A stretch of 4,675 nucleotides of DNA from a virus. Its lineage: Duplodnaviria > Heunggongvirae > Uroviricota > Caudoviricetes. Location: the IMG/VR virus record IMGVR_UViG_2734482570_000004. One strand, written 5' to 3'. Shown one piece after another: positions 1-769 of the stretch; positions within the stretch are counted from its first letter, which is position 1, and the number at the start of each line of letters is the position of its first letter. The notes beneath the pieces were generated by a model. That model saw only the letters and a program-made list of their open reading frames with translations, did not search any database and had not been told where the DNA came from. A program made the translations under genes and the position numbers.

Positions 1-351
1 AACGTTGGGTTTTTCTGCTCATTATTAGCTCCTTCTGATGCCATTCTATTTCAGGAAGGAGTGTCCGTTAAACTCAGGCTACCTCAGGTTATTCGCTTCT
101 GGGCATGGGCGGATCAACAAATGATAGACGGTAATGCAGATTGTAACGCTCGCGGCGTTACAAAAAGTGCAATAGATCGCATCACTTTTATGTCTGGTTT
201 TGCTGATGCGTTAATTCAGGTTGGATGGCTGGTCGAAAATGACGGAGGGCTTTCTCTACCTAACTTTGAACGTCATAACGGAAAAAGCTCTAAAAAAAAC
301 GGGCGGTTACAAACGAGCGAGTAACAAAAATACGCGAACTGAAACGAAAAG

Positions 352-370
352 GTAACGCTGCCAGCGTTAC
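352..370. repeat. Perfect 9-bp inverted repeat with 1-nt centre (GTAACGCTG c CAGCGTTAC)
   Basis: Read directly from the sequence; the reverse complement of 352..360 equals 362..370. Confidence 0.9.
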
Positions 371-395
371 ACAAACGGATCAAAAAGCGTTACCA

Positions 396-413
396 GAGGA
401 AGAGGAAGAGGAA
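396..413. repeat. Tandem hexanucleotide repeat (GAGGAA)x3, encoding a poly-Glu stretch in frame 3
   Basis: Read directly from the sequence: gaggaa gaggaa gaggaa. Confidence 0.9.
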
Positions 414-769
414 GATCTAAATACTGATCTCCCCCTCGCCAAAAACGAGCGTCTAAAAAATTCGAGCCGGAGGCTATTGAGCTGCCCGATTGGTTGCCGG
501 AAACACTCTGGCATGAGTGGGTCCGGTTCAGACAGGCATTGCGAAAACCGATTCGAACGGAGCAGGGCGCTAACGGGGCGATACGGGAACTGGAAAAATT
601 CCGTCAGCAGGGTTTTACACCTGAGCAGGTGATTCGACACAGCATCGCCAATGAATACCAGGGCCTGTTCGCGCCGAAAGGTGTTCGGCCTGAGACGTTG
701 CTCCGACAGGTTAACACCGTCTCGTTGCCGGACAGTGCGATCCCGCCAGGCTTCAGGGGGTAACGGACC

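What the first reader, a model, noticed from the sequence alone, without database searches (positions are those of the whole stretch)
300..460. Candidate replication origin embedded in the initiator gene linker
The stretch coding for the interdomain linker contains five GTWAC motifs, a perfect 19-nt palindrome (352..370), an A-rich tract and a (GAGGAA)x3 repeat. Lambda-type phages place ori inside the initiator gene at exactly this interdomain position, as iterons plus an AT-rich unwinding element. This element would be the binding target for the initiator's own N-terminal domain.
Basis: partly seen in the sequence, partly recalled or inferred. Interest (0 to 1): 0.5.

Follow-up and report, generated by a model that had tools for sequence, protein, structure and literature searches.

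The report
Conserved initiator-binding origin-like array, decayed copy
The repeats are real and belong to a DNA-level array (GTAACGC-N5-GCGTTAC sites, then a purine-rich, easily melted tract) that travels with one family of phage replication initiators and is most likely their replication origin, but the copy in this window sits in a broken gene.

Summary
The true unit is not GTWAC but a 7-N5-7 palindrome, GTAACGC-N5-GCGTTAC, at 352-370. A second exact copy lies at 143-161, and half-sites lie at 303-310, 318-325, 341-347 and 387-394. A 21-nt polypurine run and a short AT-rich stretch with two GATC follow.

In about 50 non-redundant homologues (29-100% identity in the N-terminal domain, Enterobacterales to Burkholderiales) the arms are nearly invariant and the spacer is free. 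The linker site is read in two different codon registers. A third copy lies in non-coding DNA 32-44 bp upstream of the start codon. The purine tract is a pentamer repeat read in three frames.

An unbiased scan of viral contigs for the exact palindrome landed in this initiator family in 101 of 120 loci, at fixed positions. The N-terminal domain models as a winged helix.

K-12 Rac YdaU has the same C-terminal domain but a different N-terminal domain and different linker repeats, as in lambda O/ori modules.

A lambda-type intragenic origin bound by the initiator is therefore the best reading. Origin activity is untested.

In this window the gene is dead: IS600 insertion, +2 frameshift and 10-bp deletion.

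The parts
1..89 (-). Terminal part of an IS600 (IS3-family) copy. The orfA start is on the minus strand. The element interrupts the initiator gene at about codon 35.
   Evidence: Positions 1-90 match multi-copy sequence next to IS3-family orfA/orfB ORFs (MSRKTQRYSKEFKAEAV...). An IS600 copy is annotated for the other window end. The alignment with intact genes breaks at about 86-89.
90..763 (+). Remnant of a YdaU-like (phrog_2509) replication initiator gene, now a pseudogene. The N-terminal domain from about codon 36 is in frame 1, the linker in frame 3, and the C-terminal domain in frame 2.
   Evidence: The intact homologue is 262 aa (L001:2398-3186).
131..137 (+). Degenerate half-site GTAATGC, 12 bp upstream of site 1.
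   Evidence: Most homologues have an exact GTAACGC at this position.
143..161 (.). Site 1: exact palindrome GTAACGC-TCGCG-GCGTTAC. It lies inside the sequence coding a loop of the N-terminal domain.
   Evidence: It is present in 19/19 diverse loci, with exact arms in 17 and 13 distinct spacers.
292..299 (+). A8 homopolymer run, a +2 frameshift relative to the intact gene.
   Evidence: Among 58 close relatives, 56 have A6 and 2 have A9.
303..310 (+). Imperfect half-site GCGGTTAC.
   Evidence: Its conservation among homologues is weaker.
318..325 (+). Imperfect half-site in the opposite orientation, GCGAGTAAC.
   Evidence: It reads GTTAC in many homologues.
341..347 (+). Degenerate direct-repeat unit GAAACGA, 11 nt start-to-start upstream of site 2. 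It is the relic of the 12-bp-period GTAACGC repeats seen in homologues.
352..370 (.). Site 2: exact palindrome GTAACGC-TGCCA-GCGTTAC in the linker.
   Evidence: It is read in codon register 1 in some lineages and register 0 in others.
387..394 (+). Right-hand half-site GCGTTACC, directly abutting the purine tract.
   Evidence: The TTA and CCA codons are fixed in nearly all homologues.
395..415 (+). Polypurine run AGAGGAAGAGGAAGAGGAAGA, which includes (GAGGAA)x3 at 396-413.
   Evidence: Purine fraction is 0.88 against a 0.56 background in 51 representatives. Distant members carry an (AGAGA)n pentamer read in three frames. Copy number is 2-7 among close relatives.
413..430 (.). Short AT-rich stretch with two GATC sites (414-417, 426-429). 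Together with the purine run it is the candidate unwinding element.
   Evidence: The least stable 30-mer of the whole gene region lies here in 10/19 loci. In all 19 it falls in the least stable 0-5.5% of the locus.
430..436 (+). Single remaining C5 box. It marks the junction of a 10-bp deletion (TCCCCCTAAA lost), which shifts the frame by 1 nt.
   Evidence: The same deletion occurs in 2 of 58 relatives. The CCCCC-N3-4-CCCCC box marks the N-module/C-module boundary in all families.
770..1516 (+). ydaV, a DnaC/IstB-like helicase-loader ATPase. It is the presumed partner of the initiator's C-terminal domain.
   Evidence: (PF01695, E = 1e-19) and the annotations.

Best explanation
The stretch is the decayed copy of a cis-acting array of binding sites for the winged-helix N-terminal domain of a YdaU-like (phrog_2509) phage replication initiator. 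The array lies within that initiator's own gene.

Working model, by analogy with lambda O and ori-lambda:

1. Initiator dimers bind the 19-bp palindromes GTAACGC-N5-GCGTTAC. In intact genes there is one about 35 bp upstream of the start codon, one at codons ~50-60, and one in the linker. They also bind flanking half-sites spaced 12 bp apart.
2. The resulting nucleoprotein complex destabilises the adjoining polypurine/AT-rich tract (395-430 here).
3. The variable C-terminal domain then brings in the helicase. In Rac-type phages it is a YdaV/DnaC-loader-binding type. In Uetakevirus-type phages it is a DnaT-like domain.
4. The upstream palindrome probably also gives autoregulation.

What is shown and what is inferred:
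- Shown here: DNA-level constraint independent of coding, near-exclusive linkage of the site to this N-terminal domain, and modular co-variation of N-terminal domain and repeats.
- Inferred: binding by the initiator, unwinding at the purine tract, and origin activity.

In this window the initiator gene is inactivated and no upstream site is present. The copy is therefore a relic that could fire only if a related prophage supplied the initiator in trans.
For: 1. Conservation across genera. In 19 loci from about 12 genera, 49 sites were found. Arm positions are 46-49 of 49 identical, and the two central spacer positions carry about 0 bits.

2. Independence from the reading frame.
- Site 2 is in codon register 1 (coding xNAxxVT) in 42 cases and register 0 (coding VTxxALx) in 11.
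- At the arms the amino acid varies (C/G/S/R/I/T; G/S/T/N/R) while the bases stay fixed.
- A third copy lies in non-coding DNA at -32 to -44 in 13 of 24 loci.

3. Unbiased scan. The exact palindrome was searched in IMG/VR. Of the first 120 loci, 101 encode the N-terminal domain (29-100% identity), with the sites at +139 to +165, +337 to +441 or -32 to -44.

4. Complete phage genomes.
- In TL-2011b and vB_EcoS-666R9 the palindrome occurs only in or at the initiator gene.
- The heptamer clusters there, with P = 5e-8 and 4e-13.

5. Common partner. Only the initiator is shared by all 19 diverse loci. YdaT-like proteins occur in 14, and other regulators in fewer.

6. Downstream tract.
- Purine fraction is 0.88 against 0.56, and AT is 0.63 against 0.46.
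- The tract is a pentamer repeat read in three frames.
- It is the least stable 30-mer of the gene region in 10 of 19 loci.

8. Module swap. K-12 Rac YdaU shares the C-terminal domain (85% identity). It has a DUF1376 N-terminal domain and its own linker repeats, TGTTCAAACA with 33-bp spacing plus an inverted copy.

9. Precedent. Ori-lambda lies inside gene O as four dyad-symmetric iterons bound by O dimers, next to a 39-bp AT-rich region (PMC6022878).
Against: - No experiment shows binding, unwinding or replication start, and no paper describing this element was found.
- The candidate unwinding tract is only moderately AT-rich, about 62%. In the Rac-type copy it is at the 96th-97th stability percentile, not the minimum.
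- All strong sites are inverted repeats, which in iteron plasmids are typically autorepression operators rather than origin iterons.
- The three palindromes are about 200 bp apart, unlike the four contiguous lambda iterons.
- The structure model is of moderate confidence (pLDDT 65), and the fold matches are weak.
Confidence: 0.68

Rival explanations
1. The palindromes are only autoregulatory operators. The initiator, or another repressor, binds them to throttle transcription or translation of the replication operon, and the true origin lies elsewhere.
For: A palindrome sits 32-44 bp upstream of the start codon, just before the ribosome-binding site, in 13 of 24 loci. Dyad-symmetric sites are the classic operator form. 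In iteron plasmids, inverted repeats serve Rep autorepression (general knowledge).
Against: Two of the three sites lie well inside the coding sequence. They are kept even where the upstream site is absent. The linker site is always followed by the half-site, polypurine and AT-rich arrangement, which an operator does not need. No sigma-70-like promoter was found around the sites. This rival can also coexist with the origin function rather than replace it.
Confidence: 0.17
2. The repeats are a by-product of coding: a repetitive Val-Thr / Gly-Asn-Ala / Glu-rich linker peptide plus codon bias, with no DNA-level function.
For: Several GTWAC motifs do fall on Val-Thr codons, and (GAGGAA)n encodes poly-Glu.
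Against: - The same 19-mer is read in two codon registers.
- It also occurs in non-coding DNA.
- Amino acids at the arm codons vary while the bases stay fixed.
- Overall third-position conservation is 0.62, while the arms are about 100% conserved.
- The purine tract is a pentamer read in three frames, giving EEEEEE, PEKRREEK or PREEKRRE.
Confidence: 0.02
3. The palindromes act as RNA or single-strand hairpins, for example an mRNA processing or attenuation signal, an antisense terminator, or a primosome assembly site.
For: The 7-9 bp stem with a 5-nt loop can fold. On the minus strand, site 2 is followed by a T-rich run and scores as terminator-like.
Against: - About 100 independent sites keep the arm sequence itself, with no compensatory changes.
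- Isolated half-sites at 12-bp spacing are also conserved.
- The terminator-like hit is at chance level, 1 found against 1.3 expected, and does not apply to site 1 or the upstream site.
- There is no Rfam match.
Confidence: 0.05
4. The sites are bound by a host factor or another phage protein, for instance for packaging, recombination or partition, rather than by the initiator.
For: No direct binding data exist. The CCCCC-N-CCCCC box nearby looks like a recombination junction between modules.
Against: The sites follow the N-terminal domain across podophage-like (Uetakevirus) and Rac-like genomes, which have different neighbours and morphogenesis genes. They also follow it from Enterobacterales to a betaproteobacterial replicon. 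No other protein is common to all loci.
Confidence: 0.08

Closest known systems
ori-lambda inside gene O of phage lambda (and the equivalent origins of lambdoid phages such as 933W-type Stx phages)
   Same: - It lies inside the initiator gene, between the DNA-binding N-terminal domain and the C-terminal domain that recruits the helicase loader.
- The repeated sites are 18-19 bp with dyad symmetry, suited to dimers.
- An easily melted, purine-skewed tract follows.
- The N-terminal domain and its repeats exchange together as a specificity module (PMC6022878, PMC7466680).
   Different: - The N-terminal domain has no detectable sequence relation to lambda O: no Pfam hit even at E = 10.
- The site sequence is different.
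- The full palindromes are dispersed about 200 bp apart (5' UTR, N-terminal-domain coding sequence, linker) rather than being four contiguous iterons.
- Extra half-sites occur at a 12-bp period.
- The adjoining tract is a polypurine repeat with only moderate AT content.
oriJ of the E. coli K-12 Rac prophage (Diaz et al. 1979; Potrykus et al. 2000, cited in PMC11014345 and PMC3945230)
   Same: Same prophage family, same gene order (ydaS/T-like, ydaU, ydaV), and 85% identical initiator C-terminal domain and ydaV context.
   Different: K-12 YdaU has a DUF1376 N-terminal domain. Its linker carries TGTTCAAACA repeats, not GTAACGC palindromes. The nucleotide-level position of oriJ could not be read here.
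Origins inside 'replisome organizer' genes of Gram-positive phages (SPP1 gene 38 oriL, lactococcal P335-type phages). Recalled from memory, not checked here.
   Same: A winged-helix N-terminal domain binds repeats located within its own gene. Foldseek places the model near viral 'replisome organizer' proteins (E = 0.009-0.13).
   Different: The sequence families, hosts and repeat types differ. The structural similarity is weak.
Iteron plasmid replicons (winged-helix Rep proteins of pPS10, F, R6K, pSC101)
   Same: A winged-helix initiator. An inverted repeat near the start of its own gene is a plausible autorepression site. Repeated half-sites lie next to an unwinding element.
   Different: Here the strongest sites are palindromes, and the array is embedded in coding sequence. 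The direct repeats are 7-mers at a 12-bp period, not 17-22-bp iterons.

Membership tests
Lambda-type intragenic phage origin | Located within the initiator gene, between the N-terminal DNA-binding domain and the C-terminal helicase-loader-recruiting domain | tested here: met
   Site 2, the half-site and the purine tract lie in the linker of the intact 262-aa homologue. The window copy of the gene is disrupted.
Lambda-type intragenic phage origin | Several repeated initiator-binding sites with internal dyad symmetry | tested here: met
   There are two to three exact 19-bp palindromes plus 2-5 half-sites per gene. The arms are invariant and the spacer is free. The arrangement is dispersed rather than four contiguous iterons.
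Lambda-type intragenic phage origin | Adjacent AT-rich DNA-unwinding element | tested here: inconclusive
   The polypurine/AT-rich tract directly follows the last half-site. AT is 0.63 against a 0.46 background, and the tract is the least stable 30-mer of the gene region in 10/19 loci. Unwinding has not been shown.
Lambda-type intragenic phage origin | The N-terminal domain and its repeats co-vary as one specificity module while the C-terminal domain is exchangeable | tested here: met
   The same N-terminal domain and sites occur with Rac-type or DnaT-type C-terminal domains. K-12 YdaU has the same C-terminal domain with a different N-terminal domain and different repeats.
Lambda-type intragenic phage origin | The initiator binds the repeats, and replication starts there | not testable with these tools
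   This needs EMSA or footprinting, plasmid replication assays and replication-start mapping.
Lambda O protein family (Pfam Phage_rep_O) | Sequence match of the N-terminal domain to the family profile | tested here: not met
   No Pfam-A family matched the whole protein or either domain, even at E = 10. There was no PDB sequence relative.
PHROG 2509 'replication initiation protein' | Full-length profile match | tested here: met
   E = 1.2e-89 over residues 1-262 for the intact homologue, and 9e-130 for the Uetakevirus-type protein.
Winged-helix 'replisome organizer'-like initiators | Winged-helix fold of the N-terminal domain | tested here: inconclusive
Rac oriJ (K-12) | Same origin sequence as in the K-12 Rac prophage | tested here: not met
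   The K-12 ydaU sequence shown (L007:2100-3000) contains no GTAACGC-N5-GCGTTAC and has different repeats. DNA similarity to K-12 begins only at the C-terminal domain.

The most novel reading that the evidence does not exclude
The invariant polypurine repeat ((GAGAA)n or (GAGGAA)n) that abuts the last initiator box is not just a weak duplex. It is a strand-specific single-strand loading track, functionally comparable to the DnaA-trio next to DnaA boxes in bacterial oriC. The initiator, or its DnaT-like C-terminal domain, would spread along it to open the origin. The copies of the box inside the initiator's own 5' UTR and inside its DNA-binding-domain coding sequence would couple initiator synthesis to origin occupancy. 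That would be an origin-opening and feedback logic not described for phage origins.
Probability: 0.1. Interest if true: 0.75.

Novelty: new member of a known kind. Interest (0 to 1): 0.45.

Why it matters
- It gives a precise, testable cis-element for a widespread but uncharacterised family of phage replication initiators. The element is a 7-N5-7 box, then 12-bp-period half-sites, then a polypurine/AT-rich tract. The family includes Rac-like prophages of E. coli and Shigella, Uetakevirus-type phages, and relatives in many Proteobacteria.
- It explains why some residues of a predicted disordered loop (N-A..V-T) look 'conserved' in the protein. They are fixed by the DNA site, not by protein function.
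- It shows that Rac-family prophages carry at least two alternative N-terminal-domain/origin modules joined at a conserved C-rich junction.
- For this particular window the element is a fossil in an IS600-disrupted pseudogene, so it has no likely function in the host.

Tried and rejected
- Pfam gave nothing for either initiator domain. NCBIfam gave only a DnaT tail match.
- A PDB sequence search gave nothing. Rfam gave nothing in the window.
- The word-indexed protein search returned only 34 hits, mostly truncated proteins, so it was little use for diversity.
- Papers on oriJ fine structure could not be read. Searches for YdaU, oriJ, Eru-type Stx replication regions and epsilon15/phiV10 origins found no description of this element.
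- YdaT as the binder was rejected. Its footprints show no palindrome (PMC11879457), and the protein is absent from 5 of 19 loci.
- L024 is a divergent 145-aa copy with GTAATGC-N5-GTATTAC. It looked like a covariation case but is a decayed remnant without a linker, so it is not informative.
- A promoter scan around the sites found nothing. The minus-strand terminator-like hit is at chance level.
- The 40-nt GC profile shows no strongly AT-rich block. Only the nearest-neighbour stability and purine measures pick out the tract.

Full report
**What the window is.** The window is a prophage fragment bounded by IS600 copies.
- Positions 1-89 are the end of an IS3-family element. Its orfA (MSRKTQRYSKEFKAEAV...) starts on the minus strand.
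- The last ~120 bases match sequence annotated 'IS3-like element IS600 family transposase' in thousands of E. coli records.
- Between the two IS copies lies a Rac-like lambdoid replication region:
  - a ydaU-like initiator remnant (90-763);
  - ydaV, a DnaC/IstB-like ATPase (770-1516);
  - a DUF977 winged-helix protein, a zinc-ribbon protein and QueH;
  - an assembly gap of Ns;
  - a Hok/Gef C-terminus and a truncated DUF1367 gene.
- The closest records are E. coli prophages (97-98% identity) and 'Escherichia phage Rac' MN652886 (93%).

**The gene is not intact here.**
- Alignment with intact 262-aa homologues shows that the first ~35 codons and the upstream region are cut off by the IS.
- An A-run is A8 (292-299) instead of A6.
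- Ten bases (TCCCCCTAAA) are missing around 430-436.
- As a result the N-terminal domain, the linker and the C-terminal domain lie in frames 1, 3 and 2.
- Among 58 close relatives, 56 have A6 and 2 have A9. Two share the 10-bp deletion.
Because the assembly is a draft, the A8 could also be a sequencing error.

**The observation.**
- GTWAC is enriched in the window, with 14 copies against 5.1 expected, and half of them lie in 143-393.
- The real unit is longer: GTAACGC-N5-GCGTTAC. Only 0.14 matches are expected even with 3 mismatches allowed.
- There is an exact half-site GCGTTAC(C) at 387-394, and weaker half-sites at 131-137, 303-310, 318-325 and 341-347.

**Is it more than coding?** Yes, on five independent grounds.

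1. Conservation of arms, freedom of spacer. I collected 18 genomic loci from Rouxiella, Serratia, Erwinia, Yersinia, Mixta, Rahnella, Winslowiella, Pectobacterium, Samsonia, Pantoea and others. Their N-terminal domains are 55-100% identical to the query. I added four phages (BUCT554, ST11-OXA245phi3.2, ZX5, TL-2011b).
   - Both palindromes are present at homologous positions in essentially all of them.
   - Over 49 sites in 19 loci, the arm positions are 46-49 of 49 identical.
   - The central spacer positions carry about 0 bits. There are 9, 13 and 17 distinct spacers at the three site classes.
   - Even among near-identical E. coli prophages, the polymorphism at site 2 sits in the spacer.

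2. Two codon registers. The linker palindrome is read in register 1 (coding xNAxxVT) in 42 cases and in register 0 (coding VTxxALx) in 11.

3. Amino acids vary while bases stay fixed. At the arm codons the residue is C/G/S/R/I/T at xGT and G/S/T/N/R at nGC, but the bases belonging to the motif do not change. Third positions elsewhere average 0.62 conservation.

4. A non-coding copy. A third exact palindrome lies 32-44 bp upstream of the start codon in 13 of 24 loci, including the closest intact relatives. The window has lost it to the IS.

5. A frame-independent purine tract. The tract after the last half-site is polypurine in every lineage. Purine fraction is 0.88 over 25 nt against a 0.56 background whose 95th percentile is 0.76.
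   - In enterobacterial members it is (GAGGAA)n, coding poly-Glu.
   - In distant members it is an (AGAGA)n pentamer, read as PEKRREEK, PREEKRRE or REEKRREEK depending on the frame.

**What the sites travel with.**
  - 101 of them encode a homologue of the N-terminal domain, at 29-100% identity.
  - In those, the palindromes lie at +139 to +165, +337 to +441 or -32 to -44 from the start.
  - Several of the other 19 loci are at contig ends.
- In the complete genomes of TL-2011b and vB_EcoS-666R9 the palindrome occurs only in or at the initiator gene. The heptamer is concentrated there, with 5 of 10 and 8 of 12 hits in 510 bp (P = 5e-8 and 4e-13).
- Clustering all ORFs of 19 diverse loci shows that the initiator is the only protein common to all. 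YdaT-like proteins are in 14, and repressors and helicase loaders in fewer.
- The same array is present in a 41-kb circular replicon of the betaproteobacterium Pusillimonas (50% identity).

**Conserved order of parts** (51 non-redundant representatives):
1. One to three direct GTAACGC units at a 12-bp period.
2. The palindrome.
3. 4-30 nt of variable sequence.
4. GCGTTACC.
5. The polypurine repeat.
6. A short AT-rich stretch.
7. A CCCCC-N3-4-CCCCC box at the start of the C-terminal domain.

The least stable 30-mer of the whole gene region falls 34-67 nt after the start of site 2 in 10 of 19 loci. In all 19 the tract is within the least stable 0-5.5% of the locus. It is only about 62% AT, though, and a plain GC profile does not flag it.

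**The protein.**
- The intact protein matches PHROG 2509, 'replication initiation protein' (E = 1e-89). It matches no Pfam family.
- An AlphaFold model of the N-terminal 146 residues was built with 18 sequences. It has pLDDT 65, with core blocks at 72-89.
  - It shows helices 16-25, 29-48, 61-67 and 73-80 and a hairpin at 84-91.
  - Foldseek against viral models finds 'replisome organizer' and DUF1376 proteins, weakly.
- Site 1 lies in the sequence coding the low-confidence loop 50-60. The apparently conserved residues N-A..V-T there are best explained by the DNA site.

**Module logic.**
- The same N-terminal domain and sites are joined to two different C-terminal domains: the Rac type and a DnaT-like type (PF17948).
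- Conversely, K-12 Rac YdaU shares the C-terminal domain (85% identity from DLxTDxPLNPPR onwards). It has a DUF1376 N-terminal domain and its own linker repeats: (A/G)TGTTCAAACA at 33-bp spacing plus an inverted copy.
- This is the pattern known for lambda O and ori-lambda. There the origin lies within gene O as four dyad-symmetric iterons, each bound by an O dimer, next to a 39-bp AT-rich region. The N-terminal domain binds DNA and the C-terminal domain binds P (PMC6022878).

**Best explanation and rivals.**
- Best reading: an initiator-binding array that serves as the phage origin. The upstream box probably also gives autoregulation (confidence about 0.68).
- I am more confident (about 0.9) of the narrower statement that this is a DNA-level binding-site array tied to the N-terminal domain.
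- Rivals:
  - Operators only: possible, and partly compatible with the origin function.
  - Coding by-product: refuted.
  - RNA or single-strand hairpin: unlikely, because arm sequence rather than pairing is conserved, isolated half-sites are conserved, and there is no Rfam hit.
  - Another binder: unlikely, because no other protein co-occurs in all loci.

**Comparison with what is known.**
- It works like ori-lambda, but it is not a member of the lambda O family by sequence.
- It differs from the K-12 Rac origin oriJ in both the N-terminal domain and the repeats. The oriJ papers could not be read here. oriJ is mentioned only as 'an active origin' in PMC3945230 and through a citation in PMC11014345.
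- I found no paper describing this palindrome or origin.
- I file it as a new member of a known kind.

**Limits.**
- There are no functional data.
- The structure model is of moderate quality.
- The viral scan was truncated and restricted to exact arms.
- The sets of loci include related sequences, so counts of loci are not counts of independent events. The spread of spacers, registers and hosts nevertheless argues for many independent lineages.

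Noticed in passing
window 1-89 and ~4558-4675: Both ends of the window are termini of IS600 (IS3 family) copies. The contig is a prophage remnant bracketed by IS elements, typical of a Shigella or E. coli draft assembly. The left copy interrupts the initiator gene, and the right copy truncates a DUF1367 gene (4262-4615).
   Followed up: partly
window 292-299; 396-413; 430-436: The linker has three slippage-prone spots. The A-run is A6 in 56 relatives, A9 in 2, and A8 here. (GAGGAA)n has 2-7 copies among close relatives. The direct repeat TCCCCCT(AAA)TCCCCCT has lost one unit here and in 2 of 58 relatives. Many database proteins of this family are truncated forms (136-183 aa).
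   Followed up: partly
L007:2472-2578 (E. coli K-12 MG1655 ydaU, NC_000913.3 ~1421471-1421577): The linker of K-12 Rac ydaU carries its own repeats: (A/G)TGTTCAAACA at 33-bp spacing plus an inverted copy, followed by an AT-rich stretch with GATC sites. It is a plausible nucleotide-level candidate for the classical oriJ.
   Followed up: partly
window 430-436; L001 ~2826-2846; L007 2631-2651: A CCCCC-N3-4-CCCCC box, often followed by AAGGGGG, marks the start of the C-terminal domain (coding PLNPPR/PPxPPKG). It is found in initiators with unrelated N-terminal domains. It looks like the junction at which N-terminal/origin modules and C-terminal modules are exchanged. Whether it is kept for the protein or for the DNA is unknown.
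   Followed up: no
window 3226-3586 and 3587-3686: A run of 361 N (an assembly gap) is followed by the C-terminal 32 codons of a Hok/Gef family toxin (PF01848, E = 2e-15), then a G+C-rich inverted repeat (3695-3722). The rest of the hok/sok locus is hidden in the gap, and no Rfam match was found in the readable part.
   Followed up: partly
window 2515-3201: A complete epoxyqueuosine reductase QueH gene (PF02677, E = 2e-65) sits in the prophage early region. It is present at the same place in the closest E. coli prophage (L001 4959-5624).
   Followed up: no
L024:1501-1938 (Enterobacteriaceae bacterium LSJC7): A divergent 145-aa copy of the N-terminal domain has the site-1 palindrome changed on both arms (GTAATGC-AGTCT-GTATTAC). 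It has no linker array and looks like a decayed remnant rather than a specificity variant.
   Followed up: partly
L108 (Pusillimonas sp. T7-7 plasmid NC_015459.1) and L109 (E. coli plasmid CP088505.1): Two circular 'plasmid' records of 41 and 52 kb, both non-mobilizable, carry this initiator. They may be phage genomes or phage-plasmids maintained extrachromosomally by this module.
   Followed up: no
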